From Escherichia coli (GTDB lineage: Bacteria; Pseudomonadota; Gammaproteobacteria; Enterobacterales; Enterobacteriaceae), in assembly GCF_024502345.1 (NCBI RefSeq), contig NZ_JALDNN010000001.1: a stretch of 64,000 bases of DNA, one strand, 5' to 3'. The position numbers and the translations under genes were made by a program. Position 1 is the stretch's first letter. Each line of letters starts with the position of its first letter. Positions 29,862-63,223 of this stretch are shown here, piece after piece. The notes beneath the pieces are model-generated. The model did not search any database. It saw only the letters and a list, made by a program, of their open reading frames with translations, and had not been told where the DNA came from.

Positions 29862-31087
<1,226 letters not shown>

Positions 31088-31091
<4 letters not shown>

Positions 31092-32644: not shown

Positions 32645-32847
32645 TTTGTATCCTGTTGTATGATTCTTAAGTACTGTTATTGGCCCGATTTTATCGCAAT
32701 TTCATATGGATGACAGGCTTTGTATGTCATGCGTTGCACTGAGAGTTCGTTTGCCCGGTTGTGTAGCCAACACTCTTTCAGTCAGGCCAGTAGAAACGTT
32801 GCGCTGACGATAAATACTGAAGCCCCAATACCATCGGGGCTGAACGT

Positions 32848-46176: not shown

Positions 46177-47133
46177 ATGTTTATTATGGCGATCAGCGCC
46201 TGGTATTTACTGCGCGGACGGGAGCGCGATGTCGCATTACGCTCGTTTGCCATCGGTTCCGTCTTCGGTACTCTGGCGATTATTGGCACGCTGCAACTCG
46301 GAGACAGTTCTGCGTATGAAGTCGCGCAAGTACAACCGGTAAAACTGGCGGCGATGGAAGGGGAGTGGCAAACGGAACCTGCACCTGCACCGTTCCATGT
46401 GGTTGCCTGGCCGGAACAGGATCAAGAGCGTAACGCCTTTGCCATCAAAATTCCCGCGCTGCTAGGGATCCTCGCCACTCACTCATTAGATAAACCCGTG
46501 CCGGGTCTGAAGAATTTGATGGCTGAAACCTACCCACGCTTGCAACGCGGACGTATGGCCTGGCTGTTAATGCAGGAAATATCGCAAGGCAATCGTGAGC
46601 CGCATGTGTTGCAGGCATTCCGGGAACTGGAAGGTGACCTGGGCTACGGCATGTTGCTCTCCCGCTATGCGCCGGATATGAATCATGTCACAGCCGCACA
46701 GTACCAGGCGGCGATGCGTGGTGCAATACCTCAGGTTGCGCCGGTATTCTGGAGTTTCCGCATCATGGTGGGCTGTGGTTCCCTGCTGCTACTGGTGATG
46801 CTGATTGCGCTTGTCCAGACGCTGCGTGGCAAAATCGACCAGCATCGCTGGGTGCTGAAAATGGCGCTCTGGAGTTTGCCGTTGCCGTGGATTGCGATTG
46901 AAGCCGGGTGGTTTATGACCGAGTTTGGTCGTCAGCCGTGGGCGATACAGGACATCTTACCGACATACTCCGCGCACTCCGCCTTAACCACAGGACAACT
47001 GGCTTTCTCACTGATCATGATCGTAGGGCTTTACACCCTGTTCTTAATCGCCGAAGTCTACCTGATGCAGAAATATGCCCGTCTGGGGCCGAGCGCGATG
47101 CAGAGTGAACAACCGACGCAGCAACAGGGGTAA
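46177..47133 (+). pseudogene. appC: Cytochrome bd-II oxidase subunit I (AppC/CbdA), 3' portion only (~318 of ~514 codons)
   Basis: C-terminal AppC sequence ...WIAIEAGWFMTEFGRQPWAIQDILPTYSAHS...; N-terminal heme-binding half absent. Confidence 0.8.
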
Positions 47134-47144
47134 AGGAGAAAATC

Positions 47145-48281
47145 ATGTTTGATTATGAAACATTGCGCTTCATCTGGTGGCTGCTGATTGGCGTGATCCT
47201 GGTGGTCTTTATGATCTCCGACGGATTTGACATGGGGATCGGCTGTTTGCTGCCGCTGGTGGCGCGTAATGATGATGAACGCCGGATAGTGATTAATAGC
47301 GTTGGTGCGCACTGGGAAGGCAATCAGGTCTGGTTGATCCTCGCAGGTGGGGCATTATTTGCCGCCTGGCCCAGAGTGTATGCAGCGGCGTTTTCCGGCT
47401 TTTATGTGGCGATGATCCTGGTGCTGTGCTCGCTGTTCTTCCGCCCGCTGGCCTTTGATTATCGCGGAAAAATCGCCGATGCACGCTGGCGTAAAATGTG
47501 GGATGCCGGTCTGGTCATCGGCAGTCTGGTGCCGCCGGTAGTCTTCGGTATCGCCTTCGGCAACTTGTTGCTCGGCGTGCCGTTTGCCTTCACACCGCAA
47601 TTACGCGTGGAGTATCTCGGCAGCTTCTGGCAACTGCTGACGCCATTCCCTTTATTGTGCGGATTGCTCAGCCTTGGGATGGTGATTTTGCAAGGTGGCG
47701 TCTGGTTACAACTGAAAACTGTTGGTGTGATTCATCTGCGTTCACAGCTGGCGACTAAACGCGCTGCACTGTTGGTGATGCTGTGCTTTTTGCTGGCGGG
47801 TTACTGGCTGTGGGTCGGTATTGATGGCTTTGTACTGCTCGCCCAGGATGCTAACGGTCCTTCCAATCCGTTAATGAAACTGGTGGCAGTGCTACCTGGT
47901 GCCTGGATGAATAATTTTGTCGAGTCGCCCGTTTTGTGGATCTTCCCGCTACTGGGGTTCTTCTGCCCATTGCTGACGGTGATGGCGATTTATCGTGGTC
48001 GCCCGGGTTGGGGATTTTTGATGGCATCATTGATGCAATTTGGCGTGATTTTCACGGCAGGCATCACGCTGTTCCCCTTTGTCATGCCGTCAAGCGTGAG
48101 TCCAATCTCCAGCCTGACGTTGTGGGACAGCACTTCCAGTCAGCTGACGCTGAGTATTATGTTGGTAATCGTGCTGATATTTTTGCCCATTGTGTTGCTC
48201 TACACTCTCTGGAGCTACTACAAAATGTGGGGGCGCATGACGACAGAAACTCTCCGCCGTAACGAAAACGAGCTGTACTAA
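47145..48281 (+). CDS. appB: Cytochrome bd-II oxidase subunit II (AppB/CbdB)
   Basis: 378-aa membrane protein [33 protein letters not shown]... Confidence 0.9.
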
Positions 48282-48293
48282 GGAGCAGGAACA

Positions 48294-48386
48294 ATGTGGT
48301 ATTTACTTTGGTTCGTCGGCATTTTGTTGATGTGTTCGCTCTCCACCCTTGTGTTGGTATGGCTGGACCCGCGATTGAAAAGTTAA
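48294..48386 (+). CDS. appX: Cytochrome bd-II accessory small membrane protein AppX
   Basis: 30-codon ORF MWYLLWFVGILLMCSLSTLVLVWLDPRLKS with SD AGGAGCAGG upstream. Confidence 0.7.
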   Translation: MWYLLWFVGILLMCSLSTLVLVWLDPRLKS

Positions 48387-48465
48387 CGAACGTAAGTCTG
48401 ATGCGGCGCATTAGCGTCGTATCAGGCAATCAATAATGTCGGATATGAAAAGCGGAAACATATCG

Positions 48466-49764
48466 ATGAAAGCGATCTTGATCCCATTTTTATCTCTTCT
48501 GATTCCGTTAACCCCGCAATCTGCATTCGCTCAGAGTGAGCCGGAGCTGAAGCTGGAAAGTGTGGTGATTGTCAGTCGTCATGGTGTGCGTGCCCCAACC
48601 AAGGCCACGCAACTGATGCAGGATGTCACCCCAGACGCATGGCCAACCTGGCCGGTAAAACTGGGTTGGCTGACACCGCGCGGTGGTGAGCTAATCGCTT
48701 ATCTCGGACATTACCAACGCCAGCGTCTGGTAGCCGACGGATTGCTGACGAAAAAGGGCTGCCCGCAGCCTGGTCAGGTCGCGATTATTGCTGATGTCGA
48801 CGAGCGTACCCGTAAAACAGGCGAAGCCTTCGCCGCCGGGCTGGCACCTGACTGTGCAATAACCGTACATACCCAGGCAGATACGTCCAGTCCCGATCCG
48901 TTATTTAATCCTCTAAAAACTGGCGTTTGCCAACTGGATAACGCGAACGTGACTGACGCGATCCTCAGCAGGGCTGGAGGGTCAATTGCTGACTTTACCG
49001 GGCATCGGCAAACGGCGTTTCGCGAACTGGAACGGGTGCTTAATTTTCCGCAATCAAACTTGTGCCTTAACCGTGAGAAACAGGACGAAAGCTGTTCATT
49101 AACGCAGGCATTACCATCGGAACTCAAGGTGAGCGCCGACAATGTCTCATTAACCGGTGCGGTAAGCCTCGCATCAATGCTGACGGAGATATTTCTCCTG
49201 CAACAGGCACAGGGAATGCCGGAGCCGGGGTGGGGAAGGATCACTGATTCACACCAGTGGAACACGTTGCTAAGTTTGCATAACGCGCAATTTTATTTAC
49301 TACAACGCACGCCGGAGGTTGCCCGCAGCCGCGCCACCCCGTTGTTGGATTTGATCATGACAGCGTTGACGCCCCATCCACCGCAAAAACAGGCGTATGG
49401 TGTGATATTACCCACTTCAGTGCTGTTTATCGCCGGACACGATACTAATCTGGCAAATCTCGGCGGCGCACTGGAGCTCAACTGGACGCTTCCAGGTCAG
49501 CCGGATAACACGCCGCCAGGTGGTGAACTGGTGTTTGAACGCTGGCGTCGGCTAAGCGATAACAGCCAGTGGATTCAGGTTTCGCTGGTCTTCCAGACTT
49601 TACAGCAGATGCGTGATAAAACGCCGCTGTCATTAAATACGCCGCCCGGAGAGGTGAAACTGACCCTGGCAGGATGTGAAGAGCGAAATGCGCAGGGCAT
49701 GTGTTCGTTGGCCGGTTTTACGCAAATCGTGAATGAAGCACGCATACCGGCGTGCAGTTTGTAA
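48466..49764 (+). CDS. appA: Periplasmic acid phosphatase / phytase AppA
   Basis: 432 aa from MKAILIPFLSLLIPLTPQSAFA; histidine acid phosphatase motif RHGVRAP. Confidence 0.9.
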   Translation: MKAILIPFLSLLIPLTPQSAFAQSEPELKLESVVIVSRHGVRAPTKATQLMQDVTPDAWPTWPVKLGWLTPRGGELIAYLGHYQRQRLVADGLLTKKGCPQPGQVAIIADVDERTRKTGEAFAAGLAPDCAITVHTQADTSSPDPLFNPLKTGVCQLDNANVTDAILSRAGGSIADFTGHRQTAFRELERVLNFPQSNLCLNREKQDESCSLTQALPSELKVSADNVSLTGAVSLASMLTEIFLLQQAQGMPEPGWGRITDSHQWNTLLSLHNAQFYLLQRTPEVARSRATPLLDLIMTALTPHPPQKQAYGVILPTSVLFIAGHDTNLANLGGALELNWTLPGQPDNTPPGGELVFERWRRLSDNSQWIQVSLVFQTLQQMRDKTPLSLNTPPGEVKLTLAGCEERNAQGMCSLAGFTQIVNEARIPACSL

Positions 49765-49774
49765 TGCATAAAAA

Positions 49775-49800
49775 AGAGCATTCAGCTACCTGAATGCTCT
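49775..49800. terminator. Hairpin between convergent appA and etk ends
   Basis: Perfect 11-bp inverted repeat agagcattcag-ctac-ctgaatgctct. Confidence 0.45.
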
Positions 49801-49830
49801 GAGGCTGATGACAAACGAAGAACTGTCTAA

Positions 49831-49870
49831 TGCGTAGACCGGAAAAGGCGTTCACGCCGCATCCGGTCAC
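49831..49870. repeat. REP (repetitive extragenic palindromic) element
   Basis: tgcgtagaccggaaaaggcgttcacgccgcatccggtcac resembles the E. coli REP consensus. Confidence 0.5.
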
Positions 49871-49883
49871 TTTACCTTCAGTT

Positions 49884-50578
49884 TTACTCTTTCTCGGAGT
49901 AACTATAACCGTAATAGTTATAGCCGTAACTGTAAGCGGTGCTGGCGCGTTTAATCACACCATTGAGGATAGCGCCTTTAATATTGACGCCTGCCTGTTC
50001 CAGACGCTGCATTGACAAGCTCACCTCTTTGGCGGTGTTCAGGCCAAAACGCGCAACCAGCAGGCTGGTGCCGACAGAGCGCCCCACGACCGCAGCATCG
50101 CTCACCGCCAGCATCGGCGGCGTATCGACAATCACCAGATCGTAATGGTCGTTCGCCCATTCCAGTAATTGACGCATCCGATCGCGCATCAGCAGTTCAG
50201 ACGGGTTAGGTGGCATCTGACCGCGAGTAATCACATCAAAGCCTCCTTTGCCAAAATGCTGGATCACTTTGTTGAGCTCATCTTTACCTGCCAGATATTC
50301 CGACAAGCCATGTGCATTACTCACGGTAAACAGGTTATGCGAATAACCATGGCGTAAGTCGGCATCAATAAATAACACTTTTTGATCGGACTGGGCGATC
50401 ACCGCTGCCAGAGTTGAACTGACAAATGTTTTACCACTGTCTGGCGTCGCACCGGTGATCATCAGAATGTTATTCTCAGTCTCCATCATAGCGAAATGCA
50501 GACTGGTTCGTAGCGCACGTACGGCTTCCACAGCAGAATCCGCCGGGTTATCCACCGCCAGGAAGGGGATATTTTTAG
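49884..50578 (-). pseudogene. etk: Tyrosine-protein kinase Etk/Wzc family, C-terminal ~230 codons only; 5' part removed at the IS5 junction
   Basis: Walker A/B kinase domain (GATPDSGKTFVSSTLAAV, DLVIVDTPP) and Tyr-rich tail YSYGYNYYGYSYSEKE; reading frame runs into the IS5 end at 50579. Confidence 0.75.
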
Positions 50579-51773
<1,195 letters not shown>

Positions 51774-52368
51774 CAAGAGAACGCAACAGCGCACTTGCTT
51801 TGCCACAGTTGAATTTTGTGCCGTAACGATGTGCAAGCATGTAAGCATAAGGAGTCAAGGTATAGCGTGTTACTTAGTTACTCGGATTAACAATCCCAAC
51901 GTACAGAGCGGCGGATTTACAGAGTCAGCGCAGTCCCTGCTCCGGCAGTCAGTGGCAGGCGGCGTACTGAAGCAAACCATTATCGATACCGGCATCGGCG
52001 ATACCATCGGCATGCTGATGTCACACGGCAATATTTCTCCCTACATCATGGCGTGGTTGATAACCGTGCTGATCCGTCTGGCAACGGGTCAGGGCGTGGT
52101 CTCAGCCATGACGGCGGCGGGGATTATTAGCGCAGCAATCCTCGACCCGGCAACCGGTCAACTGGTGGGCGTCGACCCGGCGTTGCTGGTGCTGGCAACA
52201 GCGGCTGGCTCCAACACGCTGACCCATATCAACGATGCTTCGTTCTGGCTGTTCAAAGGCTACTTTGATCTGTCGGTGAAGGATACGCTGAAAACCTGGG
52301 GTCTGCTGGAGCTGGTAAACTCCGTGGTTGGCCTGATAATCGTGTTGATCATCAGCATGATTGCATAA
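51774..52368 (+). pseudogene. GntP-family permease, C-terminal fragment
   Basis: ...[44 protein letters not shown]...[27 protein letters not shown]; 5' boundary not resolved, upstream frame runs into IS5. Confidence 0.55.
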
Positions 52369-52417
52369 CGTTGATACCGCTCTGGCCCACAGCGCCAGAG
52401 CGGTTTTCCATCCTGCC

Positions 52418-53113
52418 TCAACAATCCTCAATAATCAGATATACCGCCTTCACCGGACCATGCACCCCAACCACCTTGATAAGCTCAATATCCGCCGTCG
52501 AGCTGGGTCCACTGATGATATTAATGCACGATGGCATACGCTCACCGGCCTGTGCTTTCTGATGCAGTTTTTCTGCCAGCTGCGCCACGCGCGGCAGGAT
52601 GGTGCTTTTACGCAGCACGAAAATAGAGGACTCCGGCAACAGGCTCAGGGAGCGCCCGCGCTCCGGTGCGGAAAACAGCACCACGCCGCCGGACTCGGTC
52701 AGGCCATATTCGGCATACACCACGCCGACTTTCGCCTGCTCGGCCTGGGTAATATTTTCGCTACCACGCGCCGGATCCCAGACCACGGCGTTGCATTCCT
52801 GCTGCAAGCGTTCGGTGATGCCCAGCTCCACCAGCCGGCTGTCGCCGCTCAGCACCACCGGCTGCTGACCCAATTCTTCGCACAGGCGCAGTGCCGCGTC
52901 TGCGGCCTGGTCCTCGCTGGTCAGTTCGCAGCGGGCCAGCATCACTTCGCTGGCAAACTGGATAAACGCAGAGCAGCGCTGCTCGGGGCTAAGCTCGGTC
53001 AGGCGCTCGTTGGCATAGTTGTTAACCGGTGCGGCATCCGCTTGCGGTTCGAAGCGCAGCGGGCGACCCAGCGCCTGGGCGATGGTGTTTAAAAACGCGG
53101 TACGGTTATCCAT
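52418..53113 (-). CDS. ykgG: LutC-like lactate utilization protein YkgG
   Basis: 231 aa from MDNRTAFLNTIAQALGRPL; overlaps ykgF stop. Confidence 0.85.
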   Translation of the reverse strand: MDNRTAFLNTIAQALGRPLRFEPQADAAPVNNYANERLTELSPEQRCSAFIQFASEVMLARCELTSEDQAADAALRLCEELGQQPVVLSGDSRLVELGITERLQQECNAVVWDPARGSENITQAEQAKVGVVYAEYGLTESGGVVLFSAPERGRSLSLLPESSIFVLRKSTILPRVAQLAEKLHQKAQAGERMPSCINIISGPSSTADIELIKVVGVHGPVKAVYLIIEDC

Positions 53114-54533
53114 TCTTTTTCTCCTGCGCCTGATGTTTCTTAAACCAGCTGCGGAAGCTCTCGCCGTCAGCATCAGGCAGATCGCGCGCCTCCATCCAGT
53201 CACCAATCGCGCCAACCTTGAGCGGGGTTTTGCCGCCATTGATAAACCAGCTCGCCGCATGCGCGCCCGCCATCATCCCGACTTTCCACAGCCCCGGATG
53301 GCTATTGGCATAGGCGAACATCTTGATCGCCCGTCGCTCGGCTTTCGGCGTAATGCCCTCCTCGGCCATCACCCGGCGATGACGCAGGATCAGTTTTGAC
53401 AACGGAATACGCACCGGGCAGACGCTGTCACAAGCCGTGCACAAAGAACAGGCGTACGGCAGGTCTTTAAAATCTTTATAGCCGCCGAGCAGCGGAGAAA
53501 TCACCGCGCCGATAGGGCCGGGATAGATAGAGCCATAGCCGTGCCCGCCGATGTGGCGGTACGCCGGACAGGTGTTCATACAGGCTCCGCAGCGGATGCA
53601 GCGCAGCACATCGCGAAACTCTGAGCCCAGCACCTGCGAGCGACCGTTATCGACAATCACCAGATGGAACTCTTCCGGTCCGTCAACGTTGTCCGCCTCA
53701 CGCGGGCCGGTCAGCCAGGTGTTGTAGCCCGTCAGACGTGCGCCCACGGCGCTGCGCGCCAGCATGGTAATCAGCACATCCACCTCGGCAAAGGTCGGCG
53801 CGATACGCTCCATGCCCATCACCGCAATGTGCGTTTTCGGTAGCGTGGTGCACATGCGCGCGTTGCCTTCGTTGGTCACCAGACACACCGAGCCGGTTTC
53901 CGCCACGGCAAAGTTACAGCCAGTAATACCGATTTCGGCACTGAGGAAATCCTCGCGGATCTTCTGACGAATGAACAAGGTCATAGCTTCCGGGGTTTCC
54001 GGGCCGTCGTACCCCAGACGTTCGTTCAGCACGCGGCGGATCTGGTAGCGATCTTTATGAATCGCCGGAACCACGACGTGCGAAGGCGGATCCTGATCCA
54101 ACTGCAGGATATATTCCCCGAGATCGGTTTCGATCACCTGGATTCCGGCATCCTGCAACACATGGTTGACGCTGATTTCTTCGGTCACCATCGACTTGGA
54201 CTTCACCACCTTCTGCGCATTTTTACTCTGCGCGACCTGCAAAATGTAGCGAGTGGCATCTTCTTTGGTTTTGGCGAAATAGACGTGTCCGCCGTTTTCC
54301 GTCACTTTCTCGGAGAGTTGGTACAGGTAAGCGTCGAGGTTGCTCAGAACGTGATCGCGGATCTGGCTGGCACGATCGCGCCATTCTTCCCAGTGGCCTA
54401 ACTCATCGACCATTTTTTGCCGATTCGCGCCGATACGCTCCTGCGCATTAGCCACGGCTTTGCGCATAATCGGATCTTCTATCTGCTGACGAATACGCAG
54501 TTTAAATTCTACATCGCTGGTTTTTATCGACAT
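53106..54533 (-). CDS. ykgF: LutB-like iron-sulfur lactate utilization protein YkgF
   Basis: 475 aa with two CxxCxxCxxxCP ferredoxin motifs. Confidence 0.85.
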   Translation of the reverse strand: MSIKTSDVEFKLRIRQQIEDPIMRKAVANAQERIGANRQKMVDELGHWEEWRDRASQIRDHVLSNLDAYLYQLSEKVTENGGHVYFAKTKEDATRYILQVAQSKNAQKVVKSKSMVTEEISVNHVLQDAGIQVIETDLGEYILQLDQDPPSHVVVPAIHKDRYQIRRVLNERLGYDGPETPEAMTLFIRQKIREDFLSAEIGITGCNFAVAETGSVCLVTNEGNARMCTTLPKTHIAVMGMERIAPTFAEVDVLITMLARSAVGARLTGYNTWLTGPREADNVDGPEEFHLVIVDNGRSQVLGSEFRDVLRCIRCGACMNTCPAYRHIGGHGYGSIYPGPIGAVISPLLGGYKDFKDLPYACSLCTACDSVCPVRIPLSKLILRHRRVMAEEGITPKAERRAIKMFAYANSHPGLWKVGMMAGAHAASWFINGGKTPLKVGAIGDWMEARDLPDADGESFRSWFKKHQAQEKKNG

Positions 54534-54543
54534 CTCTTTCCCC

Positions 54544-55263
54544 TCAGCGGCTCATCAGCACTTCAGCAATATGCATCACTTTGACCGGCTGGCCTTCCCG
54601 TTGCAGTCGACCGCCAATGTTCAGCAGGCAGCTAACGTCTGCGCCAATCAAAAATTCCGGCTTTGCGTCCATCAGATGTAATACTTTCTCTTTCACCATC
54701 TCACCGGATATCTCGGCCATCTTGACCGAGAACGTCCCGCCAAAGCCGCAACAGGTATCCTGATCGGCAAACGTCAACAGCTCCAGTCCGCGCACGTTTT
54801 TCAGCAGCGTAAGCGGCTCTTCCTTCACTCCCAGTTTGCGGGTCAGGCTACAGGAAGGATGATACACAGCGCGGCCCTGCAGGCTGGCACCAACGTCCAC
54901 CACACCCAGTTTGTTGACGATAAAGGAGGTGAGATCCTGCATACGCGCGGAAACTTTCTCAGCACGCAGCGCCCATTCCGGTTCATCGGCCAGATACGTC
55001 GGGTAGCTTTTAACCGCGTAGGTGCAGGAGCCCGCCGGGGAGATAATCGGATCGTCGTTGTCTTCCAGCGCGGCGATCAGGTTTTTCATCCCGGGGATCG
55101 CCTCTTTGATGTAACCGCTGTTGATGGCTGGCTGACCGCAACACCCTTGCTTCTCGGGGAAATTAACGCGACAACCCAGTTTTTCCAGCAGCAATACGGA
55201 GTCTCGTGCCATCCGTGATTTCAGTGCGTCACCAATACAGGTGACAAAGAAATTTACATTCAC
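54544..55263 (-). CDS. ykgE: LutA-like Fe-S oxidoreductase YkgE (cysteine-rich domain)
   Basis: 239 aa MNVNFFVTCIGDALKSRMARDSVLLLEKLGCRV... with CCG motifs. Confidence 0.85.
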   Translation of the reverse strand: MNVNFFVTCIGDALKSRMARDSVLLLEKLGCRVNFPEKQGCCGQPAINSGYIKEAIPGMKNLIAALEDNDDPIISPAGSCTYAVKSYPTYLADEPEWALRAEKVSARMQDLTSFIVNKLGVVDVGASLQGRAVYHPSCSLTRKLGVKEEPLTLLKNVRGLELLTFADQDTCCGFGGTFSVKMAEISGEMVKEKVLHLMDAKPEFLIGADVSCLLNIGGRLQREGQPVKVMHIAEVLMSR

Positions 55264-55337
55264 AATAACTACTCCATTGCTTCATTTCTGTTTATTGCGC
55301 TTGATATCGCGATATCAAACAAATGTTCATTCGTATT

Positions 55338-57035
55338 TCATGCCCAGTTTTTATGTTTGCTGGTTTTACCAATACCTGGGTTCATAGTGTTGGTCGGATC
55401 ATTTTCCTGATAAAAACGTGCCAAATTTTCCGGCGCTTTATACAGATGGCCGACATTGTGTTCCGCCGGATATTGCGCTCCGCGTTGGCGCAGTAATTCC
55501 AGCATCTGTTCTTTTAACGCGTGGGCATCTACGCCTTTTTTAACGATATAATCCTGATGGAATACATGGCACATAAAATGGCCGTAATAGAGTTTATGCA
55601 CCAACTGACTGTCAATTTCCGCCGGTAAATGCTCATACCATTCGGTATCATTGCGGCGTAATGCAATATCCAGCGCGAGAATATCCTCAACCTCGTCAGA
55701 ATGAACGGCCTGATAACGAATGGCAGCACCCGCGGCGGCAAAACGATGCAGAAACGCCTTACTGCCCTCTTCCGCGGTACAGGTAAAGAACGCGCCCTCG
55801 GCCGATTTAAAATAGTCCGTTAACCATGCCTGGGCTTCGGCCACACCCTCACCGGACATTTTCAACATCAGATGGTGTTCATAGTTATCGCGCCAGGTCT
55901 TCATCCGCGCCGGGAGATGGCTCGGGAACAGATGGCTAAAAGCCTGCATCGCGCGGTCGGTAAAGTGCGGGCGAAAGATCTTCACCTTCTCAAGTATGGC
56001 CTCGGTACGCCCCTTCAGGTTGAAGAAGAACGGCATTTTGTCCGTGCCAAGTTTGTCGATCATCAGGAAGGTATCTTTGCTGTATTTCTCTGCAATATCA
56101 TAGATATCGCGGTGCATATACTCCCCAGCAACCGGCAGGTTTGTAAAATTCGCCAGGATGTGGCGGCGAATCTCAGTCAGGACATCAGTCTGATTGGTAC
56201 CGATATAAAAGACCTGCTGGTTCTTCTCGGCTTCAAAGGTATCCAGACGTACGGCAAACACCGCTAACTTGCCCGCACAGCCAGAGGATTCAAACAGGCG
56301 ATCCGGGTCAGCGTTGTAACGTGCTGGCGTGTCGGCATTGATGTCCCGCACGCGGCTAACATAGTCGTGATCGTGCGCGTGACGCCCGTCATGGTTGACG
56401 AGCACGGCTTCAATCGCATTGTTATCCAGCCGGGCAAGGATTTGCTCTGGCGTCTGACCTAGCTCAATGCCGAGGTGATTGACCAGCTGCAAGCGTCCCT
56501 GTTCATCAATACGGGCAAACAGCGACATCTCGGTATAAGCCGGGCCACGCTGGACCAGAGAACCGCCGGAGTTATTACAGATACCGCCGATAACCGACGC
56601 GCCGATGCACGAAGAGCCAATCACCGAATGCGGCTCACGGCCAAACGGCTTCAGCGCCTTTTCCAGCGAATACAGCGTGGTGCCCGGATAAGCCAGCACC
56701 TGCTTACCCTCATCCAGCACATGCAGACTGTCCAGCCGCAGCGTGCTGATAATGACGATCTCGCGGTCGTAATCATTACCATTGGGCGTCGAACCCTCAG
56801 TCAGGCCAGTGTTCGACGCCTGCATCAGGATTATTTTATCGGCCTCAACGCAGGCGCTAAGGACTTTCCAGAGTTCAAGCAAAGAGCCGGGGATAACCAC
56901 CGCCAGAGCATCACCCTGACCCGAGCGAAAACCCTTACGGTAACGCGCAGTTTTTGACGGTTCGGTGAGGATATGAGCAGGGCCAACCAATTGGGTAAGA
57001 GTTGTCAAAAAGGTCTTATTATCAGTATGTTTCAT
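55338..57035 (-). CDS. FAD-dependent D-lactate dehydrogenase, Dld paralog
   Basis: ~565 aa from MKHTDNKTFLTTLTQLVGPAHILTEPSKTARYRKGFRSGQGDALAVV; ORF-track start at 57083 is probably an extension. Confidence 0.8.
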   Translation of the reverse strand: MKHTDNKTFLTTLTQLVGPAHILTEPSKTARYRKGFRSGQGDALAVVIPGSLLELWKVLSACVEADKIILMQASNTGLTEGSTPNGNDYDREIVIISTLRLDSLHVLDEGKQVLAYPGTTLYSLEKALKPFGREPHSVIGSSCIGASVIGGICNNSGGSLVQRGPAYTEMSLFARIDEQGRLQLVNHLGIELGQTPEQILARLDNNAIEAVLVNHDGRHAHDHDYVSRVRDINADTPARYNADPDRLFESSGCAGKLAVFAVRLDTFEAEKNQQVFYIGTNQTDVLTEIRRHILANFTNLPVAGEYMHRDIYDIAEKYSKDTFLMIDKLGTDKMPFFFNLKGRTEAILEKVKIFRPHFTDRAMQAFSHLFPSHLPARMKTWRDNYEHHLMLKMSGEGVAEAQAWLTDYFKSAEGAFFTCTAEEGSKAFLHRFAAAGAAIRYQAVHSDEVEDILALDIALRRNDTEWYEHLPAEIDSQLVHKLYYGHFMCHVFHQDYIVKKGVDAHALKEQMLELLRQRGAQYPAEHNVGHLYKAPENLARFYQENDPTNTMNPGIGKTSKHKNWA

Positions 57036-57470
57036 GGAGGGCGGCTCTCCGCTCCTTATATCAGGGCCAGTGAAAATGGCCATAAGTTCATTTGTACGAC
57101 AAAACAGAATATTCCCTCAATCAATATCCACATGCAATACCCCATTTTATTTCTTTCGGCACCGCTCACATTTTTTAATGAAATTACCACTACCACATAA
57201 TTCATACTCCGTTCTTTTACTGGATGCCAAAACGCTTATTTCATTTATTGCAAAGACCATTTCATACCTATTAATGATTAACTCTAATGGGTATTATTAT
57301 ATTTAGTGGTTATTCATGTTTAATAAAAAAATAACATTATTTATACAATTATTAACCTTTGTAACTTTATTTCACTGAAGCGATTCAGTTTGCATTTTTT
57401 ATTTTATTATTAAGGTAGCCTCCTTCCCCCTAAATATAGTTAAGTCTAAAAAAGTAAATCGGGAATTGTA

Positions 57471-59024
57471 ATGCACGAATATTTAATGTTTGCTCTGGCA
57501 CTCTCTCCTTTGCTGCTGATGGTATTTTTAATACTGAAATTAAAAATGCCCATCCATTATTCCGTACTGATCTCTTTGGTATTCACTGCTGCACTATCGG
57601 CAATATTCTGGGAAATGCCCACACAGAATCTGAAAGCCGCGATAGGCTATGGTGCACTGAAGGGACTATGGCCGATCGTAATTGTTATCCTCGGCGCTAT
57701 CTTCAGTTATAACGTCATGCAGGCGACCAAAGCGCTGGATATTCTGCGCGATATTCTCGCCAGCATTAGCGAAGATAAGCGTATTCAGGTGCTGCTGATT
57801 TCATGGTGTTTTGGTGGATTTCTTGAAGCCGCTGCGGGCTATGGCACGGCGGTCGCTATTCCGATCGGTATTCTCATTGCGCTGGGATTCAACCCGTTGA
57901 AGGCGGCGATTGCTTCCCTCGTAGCAAATACCGTTCCGACCGCATTTGGCGCGGTTGGGATCCCGGTTTCTATTCTGGCAGAGCAGGTTAATCTGCCGGT
58001 TTATACCTTAGGCGGAACCATTATTTTGCAGCTCGCGCTGTTTAATATCCTGCTGCCGTTTGTGATTGTCTGCATTATTGGCGGTGGCCTGAAAGCCATT
58101 CGCGGCGTATTTCTGATCACGTTGATTTGCGGCATTTCCACGCTGGTTCCGCAATATTTTGTCGCCATCCATCTTGGCGCGGAATTACCCGCCTTTGCCG
58201 GTAGCCTGGTCAGCCTGTTTGCCGTGGCGATGGTCAGTCGCCTGCGCAAAGGGAAAACCGATCCCGAGTGGCGCATTGAGGTCAGCCATACCCGCGAAAC
58301 CACGCCGCGCTCGGCAAAAGTGTTGTTCCGGGTTGGCTCTATTTATCTGTTTATTTTTGTGTTTATCCTGCTGTGTTCGCCGCTGTTCCCGACAATAAAA
58401 GGCGCGGCATCCCAACTGGCTTCGGTGCTGCATTTCCCGTTGGCTGACGGCAAAACGATGGCGCTGAAAGTTGAATGGGCGACCACACCGGGGATGCTGA
58501 TCATCTTTGCGACCATTATCGGCGGTTTTATTCAGGGAGCGTCCGCACGTGGGATGCTGGAAGTATTTATCAAAACGATTTTCCAGCTTAAAAACTCTAT
58601 CGTCGCAATTATGGCGATCGTCGCGCTGGCCACGGTGATGGATCTCAGCGGGATTATCTCCACGCTGGCCCAGTCGATTGTCGATCTGACCGGCAGCTCG
58701 TACGTCTTCCTCGCCCCGGTGATTGGCGCGCTGGGCACGTTCGTGACCGGCAGCGATACCAACTCGAACATTCTGTTCGGCAAGCTGCAAACCATTGCCG
58801 CCAGCAAGTTACATATCGATCCTAACTGGCTGGCGGCGGCCAATACCTCTGGCGCTACGGGGGGGAAAATGATTTCGCCGCAAAGCATCGCCATCGCAGT
58901 TTCTGCCACCAAAATGGACGGTCAGGCCAACCAGATTATGTCTGGCACCATGAAATACTGCTGCGCCTACATTGTGATCCTCGGCCTGAAAGTCGGTCTG
59001 TTTTATTACTGGTTTATGGCGTAA
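57471..59024 (+). CDS. L-lactate permease family transporter (LctP)
   Basis: 517-aa multi-TM protein with LctP-family C-terminal block TGSDTNSNILFGKLQ...[13 protein letters not shown]; divergent from the dld-like gene. Confidence 0.8.
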   Translation: MHEYLMFALALSPLLLMVFLILKLKMPIHYSVLISLVFTAALSAIFWEMPTQNLKAAIGYGALKGLWPIVIVILGAIFSYNVMQATKALDILRDILASISEDKRIQVLLISWCFGGFLEAAAGYGTAVAIPIGILIALGFNPLKAAIASLVANTVPTAFGAVGIPVSILAEQVNLPVYTLGGTIILQLALFNILLPFVIVCIIGGGLKAIRGVFLITLICGISTLVPQYFVAIHLGAELPAFAGSLVSLFAVAMVSRLRKGKTDPEWRIEVSHTRETTPRSAKVLFRVGSIYLFIFVFILLCSPLFPTIKGAASQLASVLHFPLADGKTMALKVEWATTPGMLIIFATIIGGFIQGASARGMLEVFIKTIFQLKNSIVAIMAIVALATVMDLSGIISTLAQSIVDLTGSSYVFLAPVIGALGTFVTGSDTNSNILFGKLQTIAASKLHIDPNWLAAANTSGATGGKMISPQSIAIAVSATKMDGQANQIMSGTMKYCCAYIVILGLKVGLFYYWFMA

Positions 59025-59281
59025 ACCATTGTCAACCCCGTCAAATTCGCGGCAATCGAATTTGACGACATAGTGACCAAAAAGGTTTGCACCGCCCCGG
59101 GAACGGAACGAGGCAACAGACTTTACGATTTGTCGGCGCTGACTAAAATAGCGCCGATGTTTCAAATCGAGGATTGTTGTTATGTTGTTCTGGAAAAAGA
59201 TGGTGAAGAAGTTCGACGCCTTTTCCGGTGATGCTGCCAACTTACTGATTTAGTGTATGATGGTGTTTTTGAGGTGCTCCA

Positions 59282-59557
59282 GTGGCTTCTGTTTCTATCA
59301 GCTGTCCCTCCTGTTCAGCTACTGACGGGGTGGTGCGTAACGGCAAAAGCACCGCCGGACATCAGCGCTATCTCTGCTCTCACTGCCGTAAAACATGGCA
59401 ACTGCAGTTCACTTACACCGCTTCTCAACCCGGTACGCACCAGAAAATCATTGATATGGCCATGAATGGCGTTGGATGCCGGGCAACCGCCCGCATTATG
59501 GGCGTTGGCCTCAACACGATTTTCCGCCATTTAAAAAACTCAGGCCGCAGTCGGTAA
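59282..59557 (+). CDS. insA: IS1 InsA
   Basis: 91 aa [43 protein letters not shown]... Confidence 0.85.
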
Positions 59558-59979
59558 CCTCGCGCATACAGCCGGGCAGTGACGTCATCGTCTGCGCGGA
59601 AATGGACGAACAGTGGGGATACGTCGGGGCTAAATCGCGCCAGCGCTGGCTGTTTTACGCGTATGACAGGCTCCGGAAGACGGTTGTTGCGCACGTATTC
59701 GGTGAACGCACTATGGCGACGCTGGGGCGTCTTATGAGCCTGCTGTCACCCTTTGACGTGGTGATATGGATGACGGATGGCTGGCCGCTGTATGAATCCC
59801 GCCTGAAGGGAAAGCTGCACGTAATCAGCAAGCGATATACGCAGCGAATTGAGCGGCATAACCTGAATCTGAGGCAGCACCTGGCACGGCTGGGACGGAA
59901 GTCGCTGTCGTTCTCAAAATCGGTGGAGCTGCATGACAAAGTCATCGGGCATTATCTGAACATAAAACACTATCAATAA
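59476..59979 (+). CDS. insB: IS1 InsB (made as InsAB' by programmed frameshift)
   Basis: 167-aa overlapping ORF, typical IS1 organisation. Confidence 0.8.
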
Positions 59980-60253
59980 GTTGGAGTCATTACCGACCGG
60001 GTTAAACCGGAAATGCGACACCTCGGAAGTGTCTCCTGAAAACCTTTCATCAGTACGCTCATCATGCTGTTCATAGAGTAGTCCAAATACAGTACCGTAC
60101 AGTACGGTACGTTTTATATCTTGACTTCTGAGCGCCGTCAAATGAAAATGTACTCGTCAGTACGATTACGAACCCTACTATCTGACGTGATTCCGAAATC
60201 TGAGAACAAAAAGTGTTGGCCCCGGCCAGACACCTAAACTAACGAGGAAACAT

Positions 60254-60898
60254 ATGGATAAAAGAGCGCTTAAACGGCAACAGATCCTGGAGGTCGCATC
60301 CGGACTGTTTCGACAAAAGGGATTTGATGCCACGTCTATCTCAGAAATTAACGCGATTGTTGGTGGCTCAAAATCGACAATTTACAGTCACTTTTCTTCG
60401 AAAGAAGAGCTATTTGTAGAATGCATGTCTTCAGAAACTGAACAGTATATAAAAAGCATGACTATTGAAACTGCGGGGCAGGTGCGCCTTTTCAGAAAAT
60501 CACCACAGCTGGTCATCGAGCAATTTGCCGTTGCCTTTTTACGCTATATTTGCTCTCCGGATATTGTGGATTTGCAAAGATTAATGATTTCCGAGGCCGG
60601 AAGATCGGGTATCGGAGAATTATATTATGCGCGAATGCAAAAACTGCGTTCAAATGTTTCGGCGCTTTTTACCGATTTAATGAATCAAAATATTTTAAGA
60701 AAAGATGATCCTGTGTTGGCGGCTGAGTATTTTCGTTCTCTTCTCCAGGCCGACATACTGGAACCCTTGCTTTTAAAAGCAAGAAAGGATCAGCCTGACG
60801 AAAGTGAAATCGTCATGAAAGCGCAGGCCTCCGTTAATGCGTTTATGAAACTGTATGGTCCTGAAAAAATTGAGGATGTAGCAAAGACATCTTTCTAA
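60254..60898 (+). CDS. TetR/AcrR-family transcriptional regulator
   Basis: 214 aa; N-terminal HTH LEVASGLFRQKGFDATSISEINAIVGGSKSTIYSHFSSKEELF; AT-rich gene. Confidence 0.75.
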   Translation: MDKRALKRQQILEVASGLFRQKGFDATSISEINAIVGGSKSTIYSHFSSKEELFVECMSSETEQYIKSMTIETAGQVRLFRKSPQLVIEQFAVAFLRYICSPDIVDLQRLMISEAGRSGIGELYYARMQKLRSNVSALFTDLMNQNILRKDDPVLAAEYFRSLLQADILEPLLLKARKDQPDESEIVMKAQASVNAFMKLYGPEKIEDVAKTSF

Positions 60899-60916
60899 AA
60901 TACAGTAAGCGTTCTT

Positions 60917-60946
60917 TCACCCTATTATTAGGGTGATTTTTCTTTT
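60917..60946 (+). terminator. Rho-independent terminator after the TetR-family gene
   Basis: tcaccct-attatt-agggtga hairpin followed by TTTTTCTTTT. Confidence 0.55.
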
Positions 60947-61021
60947 AGGAATATTTATTTTCAATTGTCATTGGATGACTTTGCCAACGGCCTTCTTGTA
61001 AATAAAATTTCGTGGATACTT

Positions 61022-61426
61022 ATGTGTATAAAGTTTACTCTCTTAAAAGATCGTGAAGCTGTAATTAAGTCTCTTACTCACTGGATTGACTCGAATTTAT
61101 ACCGGCCCATTACCGTTTTAGATGTGGCGCGGAAATCCGGTTATTCATTGGCTTACATTCAGCGTAACTTTCGCCAGGAGTGTGGCATAAGTATAGGTCT
61201 CTATATCCGAAGCCGGAAACTCGAAAAAGCCGCGCATATGCTCAGACATACGCAGCTCTCTGTTTCAGATATATTCACGATGTTAGGGTACGAGGAGCCG
61301 TCAACGTTCAGCAGAGCGTTCTCGAATCAATATGGGCTCTCCCCAACCAAATACCGCGAGCTGGCTAAAAAAAGTCACTACATGAATGGATTGTCGATGT
61401 TGATTACTGAGGTAACGCGCGAATAA
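61022..61426 (+). CDS. Small AraC-family (MarA/SoxS-like) transcriptional regulator
   Basis: Twin HTH pattern ...WIDSNLYRPITVLDVARKSGYSLAYIQRNFRQECGISIGLYIRSRKLEKAAHML...; start uncertain (ATG 61022, or TTG 60965). Confidence 0.65.
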   Translation: MCIKFTLLKDREAVIKSLTHWIDSNLYRPITVLDVARKSGYSLAYIQRNFRQECGISIGLYIRSRKLEKAAHMLRHTQLSVSDIFTMLGYEEPSTFSRAFSNQYGLSPTKYRELAKKSHYMNGLSMLITEVTRE

Positions 61427-61438
61427 AGCGATAATCCG

Positions 61439-63223
61439 CTAACCCGCCTCCAGCATCCCAAAGCTCACAATCCGCGCGCGGCCCAGCTCTTTCGCCCGGT
61501 ACAAGGCCACATCCGCGGCGCGCAGCAGGTTGTCAGTCTGGGCATGTTGCGGGTAGCTGGCAATGCCAATCGACACGTCCACCGGCCCAATCTCGGTCAG
61601 CCCGTAGCGAATCGACAGCTCATGTACGCCGGTGTAAATCGTCTGCACGCAGGCGTGCGCCTCTGGTTCATCGGCACCGGGAAGCAGCACCAGAAACTCC
61701 TCGCCCCCGTAGCGGAATGCGAGTCCGTTGTCATGGGCAGCCCGCTGGACAATTGACGCCACGCTTTTAATCACCTGATCGCCCGCTTCATGGCCGAATC
61801 GGTCGTTGATGCTCTTGAAGTGATCGATGTCGATCATCATGCAGCTTAACGGCTCGCCGGTGCGCAACGCCTGTGCCGTTTGGGTTTGCAGGGTATCTTC
61901 CAGATGATGACGATTACGCAGGCCGGTGAGCGGGTCGAACAAGGCTTTTTCCAGCAACGCGTCGCGCAGACGCTGGTTGGCCAGCGCCAGACCGAGCGCT
62001 TCGGCCATCAGTTCCAGATAGGCGCGGGATGGGGCGTTGTCCGCCGTAATATTCTGGAAGGAGAGCAGGCCAATGGCCTCGCCCTGGGCGATAAGCGGCA
62101 CGCACAGCGAACTATCCGCCTGGGGGGCCGGAAGATGATAGCAGGCGATATCCGGCTCACCGTTTACCGGCGGGTGGCTCTGCCCGCGACGCACGGCCCA
62201 GCACTCGTCAGGGTGGAAGCTCGTCTCTTCCCCAACCGGTGAAAGCCATTGCGCGACGCAGCGCATCTGCCACGGCTCCCGGTCAAGGACGTAAAGTCGG
62301 CCCGCGATCCCCGGTGCGATATTAGGCGCAAACAGCTCCGCCACGTTAATCACATCGTTAAAGTTCTCACACCCCTGCAGCCGCTGGGTCATGCGCGCCA
62401 GCAGTTCGCGGATGGCCCAGTCGGCATCGCGTTCTCTTTCCAGACGCTGTCGCGCCAGGCCGTTTTCGCGGAAGATGCGGATGGCCTGGGCCATATCGCC
62501 AATCTCATCAATCTGGTTGAAATTGGGCGTTTCAACCGCGTAATCCTGGGACGCCAGACGGTGCACCACGTCGCTCAGGCGCACCACGGGACGCAGCACG
62601 CGGCGCTTTAATATAAAGCCGAGAACAAACAGGAACAGCAGGGCGGTCAGGCCGACCATCAGCTCAGAGGCCGTACGCAGCGCTTTCGATTTTTTTGTCG
62701 CATCCTGAACGGAGGCGATGACGCGTTTGTCGAGTATCTGGCGGAAGTGATCGAGCTGGCTCTGCGCGCGCTCCAGCTCCTGCTCATAGGGCGCACCGTA
62801 GAGCAGCGCAACGGCCTGCGCGTCTTCTCCCTGCGTCGCGCTCGTTAGTGCCGTTTGCTGCTCGTCCTGTAGCTCATCGACGATCTTTATCCCTTCATGC
62901 AGCAGGGCCAGTTCTTCATCCGATGCGCCGTTATCCTGCAACTTTTCCAGCCGAAGCTCGATGCTCTTCAGGCTGTTTTCCGCCTGGTTATATTCCTTGA
63001 GAACCTGAGGATCTTTTTTAATGACGTACAGTCGTGCTAAATCAGACTGGGCCCAGATATCGGTTTCGATATCTTCCGTGAGCTGATCAAATTTCTGCCG
63101 TTGTTCAACGGCCTGACGCTCGAGGGTATCAGCACTGGACGCCATCAGCATGATGATGCCGGAGGCGATGGTCAGGCAGACCGTGGCCCCATAGGCCCAG
63201 TTTGTTATCGTTGCGATTCGCAC
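61439..63223 (-). CDS. Membrane-anchored diguanylate cyclase with N-terminal sensor/coiled-coil, GAF-like region and C-terminal GGDEF domain
   Basis: 594 aa; GGDEF-domain motifs RYGGEEF and DPLTGLRNRHHLED; GC-rich relative to neighbours. Confidence 0.8.
   Translation of the reverse strand: MRIATITNWAYGATVCLTIASGIIMLMASSADTLERQAVEQRQKFDQLTEDIETDIWAQSDLARLYVIKKDPQVLKEYNQAENSLKSIELRLEKLQDNGASDEELALLHEGIKIVDELQDEQQTALTSATQGEDAQAVALLYGAPYEQELERAQSQLDHFRQILDKRVIASVQDATKKSKALRTASELMVGLTALLFLFVLGFILKRRVLRPVVRLSDVVHRLASQDYAVETPNFNQIDEIGDMAQAIRIFRENGLARQRLERERDADWAIRELLARMTQRLQGCENFNDVINVAELFAPNIAPGIAGRLYVLDREPWQMRCVAQWLSPVGEETSFHPDECWAVRRGQSHPPVNGEPDIACYHLPAPQADSSLCVPLIAQGEAIGLLSFQNITADNAPSRAYLELMAEALGLALANQRLRDALLEKALFDPLTGLRNRHHLEDTLQTQTAQALRTGEPLSCMMIDIDHFKSINDRFGHEAGDQVIKSVASIVQRAAHDNGLAFRYGGEEFLVLLPGADEPEAHACVQTIYTGVHELSIRYGLTEIGPVDVSIGIASYPQHAQTDNLLRAADVALYRAKELGRARIVSFGMLEAG

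What the first reader, a model, noticed from the sequence alone, without database searches (positions are those of the whole stretch)
60254..61426. AT-rich TetR-family and MarA-like regulator pair
A TetR-family repressor gene with its own terminator is followed by a small MarA/SoxS-class activator. Both genes are AT-rich compared with the adjacent GGDEF gene. The arrangement resembles repressor/activator pairs that control efflux and stress regulons, so this may be an acquired regulatory module.
Basis: inference. Interest (0 to 1): 0.3.

Follow-up and report, generated by a model that had tools for sequence, protein, structure and literature searches.

The report
Orphaned regulators of a lost efflux pump
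The TetR-type and MarA-like regulator genes are real and AT-rich, but they are the leftover control half of a five-gene Enterobacter efflux-pump module whose pump genes were cut off by an IS1 element when the DNA ended up in an E. coli genomic island, so this is an ordinary, uncharacterised member of a known kind of system.

Summary
A TetR-family gene lies at 60254-60898, followed by a terminator hairpin. A small two-HTH MarA/SoxS-class gene follows, and its real start is 61022, not 60965. GC is 0.42 and 0.44, against 0.60 for the GGDEF gene.

The pair is not a self-contained module. In Enterobacter (E. asburiae-like DNA is 99.2-99.4% identical) the TetR gene faces an operon for an outer-membrane factor, an EmrA-like adaptor and an EmrB-like MFS pump. 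These five genes move as one 5.6-kb unit. In the window, IS1 (59227-59994, no target duplication) leaves only 23 codons of the first pump gene. None of 5426 complete E. coli genomes has the pump; 19 have the orphan pair.

A GTAC-rich palindrome (60092-60110) sits between overlapping divergent promoters. TetR homologues only 47-53% identical keep this layout next to similar pumps. The TetR is therefore most likely the pump's local, self-regulating repressor.

The MarA-like protein falls below the RamA, SoxS, MarA and Rob cut-offs. It lacks their conserved SKW and SQQT recognition residues, and it has almost no close relatives. Its role as a pump activator is inferred only.

Verdict: an uncharacterised new member of a known kind, of low to moderate interest.

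The parts
59227..59994 (+). IS1 element (768 bp, insA/insB). It forms the left boundary of the Enterobacter-derived DNA. Its 9-bp flanks differ (GCCTTTTCC vs GACCGGGTT), so this is not a simple insertion.
   Evidence: Pfam InsA/IS1 transposase domains. RefSeq annotates it as IS1B. Ends were read from the sequence. Homology to Enterobacter starts exactly at 59995.
59995..60065 (-). Remnant of the first pump gene (NodT-type outer-membrane factor). Only 23 codons are left (MMSVLMKGFQETLPRCRISGLTR), and they run into IS1.
   Evidence: The translation matches the N-terminus of the 494-aa OMF of E. sichuanensis. The BLAST breakpoint is given.
60092..60110 (.). Perfect 9-1-9 palindrome GTACCGTAC-A-GTACGGTAC, made of four GTACN pentamers. 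Predicted main TetR operator (O1), overlapping the predicted start of the pump transcript.
   Evidence: It is the only such site in 64 kb (expected 0.03). It is invariant in L002 and L003. Related palindromes occupy the same position in distant TetR/pump loci.
60113..60141 (-). Predicted pump-operon promoter: TTGACG, 17 nt, TATAAA. It is still intact and reads into the 23-codon remnant and IS1.
   Evidence: Read by eye. The scan tool does not list it because the last base of the -10 is A. The same layout is conserved in L008, L009 and L011.
60121..60149 (+). Predicted tetR promoter: TTGACT, 17 nt, GAAAAT. It overlaps the pump promoter back to back.
   Evidence: Promoter scan. The layout is conserved in distant loci.
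60150..60163 (.). Degenerate second palindrome GTACT-CGTC-AGTAC at the predicted tetR transcript start (possible O2).
   Evidence: Distant loci have a full GTACCGTACGGT motif at this position. Here only the outer GTAC arms remain (5 mismatches to the 14-mer).
60254..60898 (+). TetR-family regulator gene (214 aa, TetR_N + TetR_C_7), preceded by a GAGGA ribosome-binding site.
60917..60946 (+). Intrinsic-terminator-like hairpin plus T-run after tetR.
60981..61008 (+). Candidate promoter for the araC-like gene: TTGCCA, 16 nt, TAAAAT. The -10 is conserved in L003 and the -35 is not. It would leave a leader of only about 7 nt.
   Evidence: Consensus match only.
61022..61426 (+). Small single-domain AraC/XylS-family gene of the MarA/SoxS/Rob/RamA class (134 aa, two HTH motifs).

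Best explanation
The two genes are the regulatory half of a five-gene accessory efflux module of the Enterobacter cloacae complex. The module is an operon for an outer-membrane factor, an EmrA-like adaptor and an EmrB-like 14-TMS MFS pump, transcribed divergently from tetR, with the small MarA-like gene downstream of tetR. An E. asburiae-like chromosomal segment carrying this module was captured in an IS-rich mosaic island of E. coli. An IS1-mediated rearrangement then removed the pump operon after codon 23 of its first gene.

Mechanism (inferred). The TetR protein binds the GTAC-rich palindrome at 60092-60110, and perhaps the weaker one at 60150-63. These flank two overlapping back-to-back promoters. 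Binding represses both the pump operon and tetR itself until a pump substrate binds the C-terminal domain, as in VceR/VceCAB and other TetR-controlled pumps.

The MarA-like protein is a monomeric two-HTH activator. It has been added to this module in Enterobacter and most likely boosts pump and/or envelope gene expression. It is expressed from its own weak promoter or by read-through of the tetR terminator.

In this E. coli the repressor has lost its structural target, so the pair is an orphan. TetR can still autoregulate and shut the truncated promoter. The activator could act only in trans.
For: Shown:
- Domain content.
- In E. sichuanensis, genomosp. O, MGH 24, E. asburiae-like loci and a 79%-identical locus, tetR is always divergent from OMF(494-498)-MFP(380)-MFS(514), with the araC-like gene downstream.
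- The pump proteins fit the EmrB/DHA2, EmrA and NodT subfamily models.
- The five genes are one 5.6-kb homology block with unrelated flanks, and an integrase lies nearby in L003.
- Window homology to these loci starts at the IS1 end and keeps 23 OMF codons.
- The window is 99.2-99.4% identical to loci with an intact pump whose proteins are named E. asburiae.
- IS1 lacks a target duplication.
- The pump is absent from all 5426 complete E. coli genomes. The pair is present in 19, with the same IS1 junction in the rows shown.
- The operator palindrome is unique in the window and invariant in L002 and L003.
- The whole layout (palindrome, TTTATA, TTGAC, about 13 nt, GTCAA, -10, palindrome) recurs in four loci whose TetRs are only 47-53% identical and also sit next to OMF-MFP-MFS operons.
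- Both genes are under purifying selection.
- A 48%-identical small AraC protein sits directly upstream of an RND pump.

From established knowledge: TetR-type local repressors of pumps, including VceR/VceCAB (PMC6780985), and RarA/OqxAB, RamR/RamA and TetC/TetD (PMC7355843).
Against: No binding, induction or expression data exist. Nothing was found in the literature for this module or its operator sequence.

The pump promoter has an atypical -10 (TATAAA) and was not called by the scan.

The activator's target is unknown. No marbox-like site with 2 or fewer mismatches lies in 59995-61030. Its recognition helices differ from MarA, SoxS, Rob and RamA.

The second operator is degenerate in the araC-bearing modules.

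Distant TetR homologues have a second TetR, not an AraC, at the downstream position. The activator's link to the pump therefore rests on co-inheritance in one narrow lineage.
Confidence: 0.72

Rival explanations
1. A RamR-RamA / TetC-TetD type cascade. The TetR's main job is to repress the MarA-like gene, which in turn switches on a global efflux and stress regulon (acrAB-tolC, micF and others). Under this reading the pair would still be fully functional in E. coli without the pump.
For: The two genes are adjacent and co-oriented in every locus that has the araC-like gene, and both are under purifying selection. The protein's best matches are RamA, SoxS, MarA and Rob. Read-through of the tetR terminator would place it under the TetR-controlled promoter. 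TetC/TetD shows that a mobile TetR-type plus MarA-like pair exists (PMC7355843).
Against: The conserved operator motif occurs only at the pump/tetR promoters and not in the 123-bp spacer before the araC-like gene. A conserved terminator separates the genes. TetR homologues keep the pump linkage without any AraC partner. The protein has SLA and EPST where the marbox binders have the invariant SKW and SQQT, and it is below all equivalog cut-offs.
Confidence: 0.15
2. Inert cargo. In E. coli the pair does nothing of consequence. It persists only because the island spread recently, and it will decay.
For: The structural target is gone in every complete E. coli genome that has the pair. The copies shown are 100% identical, which implies recent spread and no time for decay. 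The same pump is found in other states of IS-mediated erosion.
Against: Both ORFs, the promoters, the operator and the terminator are intact. The exact alleles are very widespread (at least 1000 contigs, 4157 index blocks). A free MarA-class activator could act in trans. None of this proves function.
Confidence: 0.3
3. The MarA-like protein regulates the convergent neighbouring diguanylate cyclase/AI-2E transporter genes (c-di-GMP control) rather than efflux.
For: It lies immediately next to the GGDEF gene in the window and in the E. asburiae-like, MGH 24 and genomosp. O loci.
Against: The neighbour is not conserved. E. sichuanensis has two other genes in between. L003 has a different AraC and unrelated genes there. 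The module's homology block ends at the araC-like gene. The GGDEF gene is convergent and has native Enterobacter GC content.
Confidence: 0.05

Closest known systems
VceR / VceCAB of Vibrio cholerae (TetR-type repressor of an OMF-MFP-MFS, EmrAB-like, tripartite pump)
   Same: The native gene order and logic match: a TetR-family gene beside an operon for an outer-membrane factor, an EmrA-like adaptor and an EmrB-like DHA2 pump (PMC6780985). A palindromic operator lies at the promoter.
   Different: Sequence relatedness to VceR was not tested. This module carries an extra MarA-like gene. In the window the pump is deleted.
RamR-RamA (Salmonella, Klebsiella, Enterobacter)
   Same: A TetR-family gene lies next to a small MarA-class activator gene. 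RamA is the best-scoring named family and solved structure.
   Different: The score of 93 bits is below the 180-bit RamA cut-off, at about 43% identity over the aligned part. The genes here are co-oriented with a terminator between them. The operator is at the pump promoter, not at the activator gene. The TetR is of the TetR_C_7 type and tied to its own pump.
TetC-TetD of Tn10
   Same: A horizontally moving pair of a TetR-type repressor and a MarA-like activator (PMC7355843).
   Different: The TetC model scores 24 bits against a cut-off of 425. No tetracycline genes are present. Similarity to TetD was not tested directly.
rarA-oqxAB-oqxR locus of Klebsiella and Enterobacter
   Same: A pump locus that carries both a local repressor and a small AraC-type activator (PMC7355843). 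A 48%-identical small AraC sits directly upstream of an MFP+RND pair.
   Different: That pump is RND, not MFS. Its repressor is GntR-type, not TetR-type. The gene order differs.
EmrR-EmrAB of E. coli
   Same: The lost pump's MFS and adaptor proteins belong to the EmrB/EmrA subfamilies.
   Different: They score below the EmrA and EmrB equivalog cut-offs. The module has its own OMF instead of using TolC. The regulator is TetR-type, not MarR-type.

Membership tests
TetR family of transcriptional regulators | N-terminal TetR-type helix-turn-helix domain | tested here: met
   PF00440 matches residues 11-57, E 1.4e-14, 54 bits against a cut-off of 24.
TetR family of transcriptional regulators | All-helical C-terminal ligand-binding/dimerisation domain | tested here: met
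   PF14246 TetR_C_7 (AefR-like) matches residues 89-203, E 9.3e-20. There is a full-length match to the solved TetR 3bhq (E 1.6e-21) and weaker matches to CmeR, AefR and NalC.
TetR family of transcriptional regulators | Palindromic operator at its own or its target's promoter | tested here: met
   Sequence evidence only. The 9-1-9 palindrome at 60092-60110 is unique in the window, invariant in L002 and L003, and has related motifs at the same position in four distant loci. Binding itself was not tested.
TetR family of transcriptional regulators | Ligand-induced release from DNA | not testable with these tools
   Needs EMSA/ITC with candidate pump substrates.
VceR/VceCAB-type locus (TetR + OMF-MFP-MFS pump) | TetR gene adjacent and divergent to an OMF-MFP-DHA2 MFS operon | tested here: not met
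   Met in the native Enterobacter loci and in the distant homologues. In the window only 23 codons of the OMF gene remain.
VceR/VceCAB-type locus (TetR + OMF-MFP-MFS pump) | Sequence orthology to VceR | not tested
   No VceR sequence or model was available in the tools used.
MarA/SoxS/Rob/RamA subfamily of AraC/XylS activators | Small single-domain protein made of two helix-turn-helix motifs, with no sensor domain | tested here: met
   134 aa. PF12833 and PF00165 cover residues equivalent to 36-113. It aligns end to end with RamA, SoxS and MarA structures.
MarA/SoxS/Rob/RamA subfamily of AraC/XylS activators | Score above the curated equivalog cut-off of a named member | tested here: not met
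   RamA 93.1/180, SoxS 91/174, MarA 73.7/202, Rob 83.8/380 bits.
MarA/SoxS/Rob/RamA subfamily of AraC/XylS activators | Conserved base-contacting residues of the two recognition helices (MarA W42, Q45, R46; Q91, Q92, T93, R96; roles recalled from the 1BL0 structure) | tested here: not met
   Q47, R48, T95 and R98 are kept, but W42 is Ala and Q91/Q92 are Pro/Ser. The motifs are SLA and EPST, against SKW and SQQT in MarA, SoxS and RamA. Among the 143 nearest representatives W is the commonest residue at that site (56), and Ala is not among the six commonest.
MarA/SoxS/Rob/RamA subfamily of AraC/XylS activators | Marbox-like site at a local target promoter | tested here: not met
   No match to AYNGCACNNWNNRYYAAAY with 2 or fewer mismatches in 59995-61030. 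The window-wide count (18) equals chance (16.9). The test has low power.
RamR-RamA / TetC-TetD type repressor-activator pair | The repressor's operator overlaps the promoter of the activator gene | tested here: not met
   The operator motif is found only at 60087-60110, and weakly at 60150-60163. None lies in 60899-61021 or upstream of the araC-like gene in L002, L003 or L024. A terminator lies between the genes.
RamR-RamA / TetC-TetD type repressor-activator pair | Orthology of the repressor to TetC | tested here: not met
   TetC model scores 24.1 bits against a cut-off of 425. RamR was not tested: no RamR model appears among the listed NCBIfam matches, and whether the library holds one was not checked.

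The most novel reading that the evidence does not exclude
The MarA-like protein founds a very rare subfamily: one 50%-identity cluster among 1.84 billion representatives. Its recognition helices are altered (Ala for the invariant Trp, EPST for SQQT), so it would read a DNA site other than the marbox. Freed from its pump in E. coli, the imported pair would act as a free-standing xenogeneic regulator that rewires envelope, efflux or stress gene expression in the many E. coli strains carrying this island.
Probability: 0.12. Interest if true: 0.45.

Novelty: new member of a known kind. Interest (0 to 1): 0.25.

Why it matters
The practical value is mainly in annotation and interpretation. Genome screens that flag "TetR + MarA-like" pairs as acquired resistance regulators would over-read this locus in E. 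coli, because the pump they belong to is gone.

In Enterobacter (E. asburiae, E. roggenkampii, E. sichuanensis and relatives) the intact five-gene module is an uncharacterised accessory tripartite MFS efflux system. It has dual control (repressor plus activator) and a clearly predictable operator. That makes it an easy target for experiments on intrinsic drug, bile or biocide tolerance in a clinically relevant species complex.

The locus also gives a clean example of two processes. One is the capture of chromosomal fragments of one enterobacterial genus in an IS-rich island of another. The other is stepwise IS-mediated erosion of a pump operon while its regulators stay intact.

Tried and rejected
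- Orthology to RamA, SoxS, MarA, Rob, TetC or AcrR: rejected, because all are far below the curated cut-offs.
- Plasmid origin: no plasmid in PLSDB carries the pair or the module. The best plasmid hits are distant EmrAB-like genes at 64% identity and 25% coverage.
- Marbox search in the local promoters: nothing with 2 or fewer mismatches, and the window-wide count equals chance.
- TetR operator copy in front of the araC-like gene: none in the window or in L002, L003 or L024. A 10-nt similarity (AAATACAGTA at 60897-60906 vs 60084-60093) covers only flank and a half-site, and I treated it as chance.
- Structured RNA or riboswitch in 59000-61600: no Rfam match at E up to 0.1.
- Simple IS1 insertion: rejected, because the 9-bp flanks differ and the left flank is unrelated DNA (lctP 3' region).
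- Literature: nothing specific was found for this module or for the operator sequence.
- Context of the nearest small AraC relatives (46-48% identity): mixed. One is next to an RND pump, one is in a fimbrial/Wzy region, and one contig was too short to tell. This gives only weak support for the activator's role.
- The genome-collection scan for the araC-like protein used only N-terminal peptide patterns and returned 3 species representatives. It therefore understates the distribution shown by cluster membership.
- Structure prediction was not run. The sequence matches to solved RamA, SoxS and MarA structures are unambiguous, so a model would not have changed the conclusion.

Full report
**Observation**

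- An ORF at 60254..60898 (+, 214 aa) has TetR_N and TetR_C_7 domains and is preceded by a GAGGA ribosome-binding site.
- A hairpin with an 8-bp stem at 60917-60936 is followed by TTTTTCTTTT. It folds at -12.6 kcal/mol, z = -2.97.
- An ORF ending at 61426 has the two AraC-type HTH motifs. RefSeq starts it at ATG 61022. In a locus 79% identical, conservation and reading frame begin at that ATG. The protein is therefore 134 aa.
- GC is 0.416 for tetR, 0.442 for the araC-like gene and 0.317 for the spacer. The GGDEF gene is 0.597.
- dN/dS between lineages is 0.03-0.07 for both genes, so they encode working proteins.

**Where the DNA comes from**

The first 20 kb of the window is E. coli core DNA, the glc region. 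The rest is an IS-rich island with an integrase, a type I R-M system, and CP4-like backbone genes. It also holds a mosaic of second copies of housekeeping genes joined by ISKpn26 and IS1.

The pair occurs in only 19 of 5426 complete E. coli genomes. It is always chromosomal, and the rows shown are 100% identical with the same IS1 junction. It is on no PLSDB plasmid. The exact protein alleles are nevertheless common in draft assemblies (at least 1000 contigs).

Close relatives of both proteins come from the Enterobacter cloacae complex and carry only generic names.

**The natural unit has five genes**

The same layout was found in E. sichuanensis (L002), Enterobacter genomosp. O (L005), Enterobacter sp. 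MGH 24 (L004) and two loci 99.2-99.4% identical to the window (L017, L024). The pump proteins of L024 are named E. asburiae. In all of them tetR is transcribed divergently from an operon of three genes:
- a NodT-type outer-membrane factor (494-498 aa);
- an EmrA-like adaptor (380 aa);
- an EmrB-like DHA2 MFS transporter (514 aa).

The araC-like gene follows tetR.

A more distant copy (L003; 79% nucleotide and 87% AraC identity) has the same five genes beside an integrase, in otherwise unrelated surroundings. The homology block runs from just past the MFS stop to the 3' end of the araC-like gene, about 5.6 kb.

The module's GC (pump 0.49-0.51, regulators 0.41-0.43) is below that of its Enterobacter neighbours (0.57-0.62). 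It is therefore accessory DNA in Enterobacter as well.

**What happened in the window**

Homology to all these loci begins at 59995, the base after the right end of IS1 (59227-59994). Only 23 codons of the OMF gene survive. The 9-bp flanks of IS1 differ (GCCTTTTCC vs GACCGGGTT), and the left flank is the 3' region of an unrelated lctP gene. The junction therefore arose by an IS1-mediated deletion or recombination, not by a simple insertion.

The pump operon is absent from every complete E. coli genome. Other decay states exist. In L019 and L021 an IS5-family element cuts the adaptor gene. In L018 and L023 the same IS1 junction is joined to a different left flank.

**Regulatory anatomy**

The 188 bp between the OMF start (60065) and the tetR start (60254) hold these features:
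- A perfect palindrome, GTACCGTAC-A-GTACGGTAC (60092-60110). It is the only such site in 64 kb (expected 0.03) and is invariant in L002 and L003.
- Two overlapping back-to-back promoters. On the + strand, TTGACT-17-GAAAAT (60121-60149). On the - strand, TTGACG-17-TATAAA (60141-60113). I read the second by eye; the scan did not call it because the -10 ends in A.
- A degenerate palindrome, GTACT-CGTC-AGTAC (60150-60163), at the predicted tetR transcript start.

The strongest argument is phylogenetic. Four loci whose TetRs are only 47-53% identical (beta- and gammaproteobacterial metagenome genomes) also place the TetR next to an OMF-MFP-MFS operon. Three of them (L008, L009, L011) keep the same string: palindrome, TTTATA, TTGAC, about 13 nt, GTCAA, -10, palindrome. 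The fourth (L010, with a longer 317-bp intergenic region) keeps only the pump-proximal palindrome. GTACCGTACGGTAC-type motifs appear in the intergenic region at up to 2 mismatches in L009, L010 and L011 and at 3 mismatches in L008. The only matches elsewhere in the scanned loci are isolated 3-mismatch hits in L002, L003 and L010.

This makes it very likely that the TetR is the local repressor of the pump operon and of itself. No copy of the motif lies before the araC-like gene.

**The MarA-like protein**

Its best matches are RamA, SoxS, MarA and Rob (E 1e-20 to 1e-18; 31-43% identity). It is below every curated equivalog cut-off.

In an exhaustive HMMER scan of 1.84 billion representatives, only its own 50%-identity cluster and fragments reach E of 1e-30 or better. 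The next hit has 104 bits against 254, at 50% identity or less.

Where MarA, SoxS and RamA have SKW in helix 3 and SQQT in helix 6, it has SLA and EPST. The roles of these residues as base contacts are recalled from the MarA-DNA structure 1BL0. Q47, R48, T95 and R98 are kept. Among the 143 nearest representatives Trp is the commonest residue at that site and Ala is rare.

It is therefore MarA-class in architecture, not an orthologue of a named member, and may not read a marbox. No marbox-like site was found locally.

In two distant TetR loci the downstream slot holds a second TetR paralogue instead. The activator is thus a lineage-specific addition. One 48%-identical relative sits directly upstream of an RND pump, in a RarA-like position. 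Another sits in an unrelated context.

**Mechanism, and what is shown or inferred**

Shown: gene content, the module structure, the IS1 truncation, the donor lineage, the conserved promoter/operator layout, and purifying selection.

Inferred:
- TetR binding at the palindromes and ligand-induced de-repression, by analogy with VceR/VceCAB and other TetR-controlled pumps (PMC6780985, PMC7355843).
- Activation of the pump and/or other envelope genes by the MarA-like protein.
- Its expression from the weak promoter at 60981-61008 or by terminator read-through.

In this E. coli the repressor's structural target is gone, so the pair is an orphan. At most the TetR autoregulates and silences a promoter that now reads into IS1, and the activator could act only in trans.

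**Rivals**

- A RamR-RamA-type cascade is disfavoured by the operator's position, the terminator, the pump linkage of distant TetRs and the altered recognition residues.
- "Inert cargo" cannot be excluded for E. coli and is compatible with the main reading.
- Control of the neighbouring GGDEF gene is unlikely, because that neighbourhood is not conserved.

**Comparison and verdict**

The native module works like VceR/VceCAB with an added RarA/RamA-like activator, which also recalls the rarA-oqxAB-oqxR logic. It is not a member of the RamR-RamA or TetC-TetD pairs. Nothing specific was found in the literature.

It is an uncharacterised new member of a known kind of system. In this window it is only the regulatory stump. 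Interest is low to moderate.

Noticed in passing
window 26630-34725 (- strand) and 37082-38404 (+): A type I restriction-modification system: hsdR 1038 aa, hsdS 409 aa, hsdM 518 aa. Next to it lies a GmrSD_N-domain protein (625 aa), and a tyrosine integrase lies nearby. This looks like the defence cargo of the same island.
   Followed up: partly
window 46177-59024 and L001 (E. coli G3/10) 10746-35299: The island holds second copies or fragments of housekeeping genes: appCBA, a wzc fragment, a gntP fragment, ykgEFG, dld, lctP, then DGC, AI-2E, mmuPM, tauABCD and hemB. They are joined by ISKpn26 (window 50725-51705) and IS1. In G3/10 two ISKpn26 copies in the same orientation bracket about 24.5 kb, like a composite transposon built from chromosomal DNA of another genus.
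   Followed up: partly
L019, L021, L018, L023: These are other erosion states of the same module. In L019 and L021 an IS5-family element truncates the adaptor gene (299 of 380 aa) and the MFS gene is lost. In the E. coli loci L018 and L023 the tetR-side IS1 junction is identical, but the left flank is the island backbone (GTPase/DUF932) instead of lctP. This implies repeated IS1-mediated deletions.
   Followed up: partly
L008 6260-7624 and L010 7001-8313: In distant relatives of the module the slot downstream of the pump-facing TetR holds a second TetR_C_7 paralogue, where Enterobacter has the MarA-like gene. This looks like a swap of the second regulator.
   Followed up: no
window 60164-60253 vs L008, L009, L011: The tetR leader between the second palindrome and the start codon is about 87 bp in modules with the MarA-like gene. 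It is only 18-21 bp in three of the four distant loci without it; L010 has a much longer intergenic region and was not measured. The extra roughly 70 bp lies upstream of the pump promoter and could hold the activator's site. This is untested and there are too few diverged sequences to judge.
   Followed up: no
L002 11170-13396: E. sichuanensis has two extra high-GC genes (an SGL/gluconolactonase-like gene and a LysR gene) between the araC-like gene and the GGDEF gene. They are absent from the window, E. asburiae-like loci, MGH 24 and genomosp. O.
   Followed up: no
window 21400-23082 (-): A methyl-accepting chemotaxis protein gene (560 aa; 4HB_MCP, HAMP and MCPsignal domains) lies just after the 20-kb stretch that matched most E. 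coli genomes.
   Followed up: no
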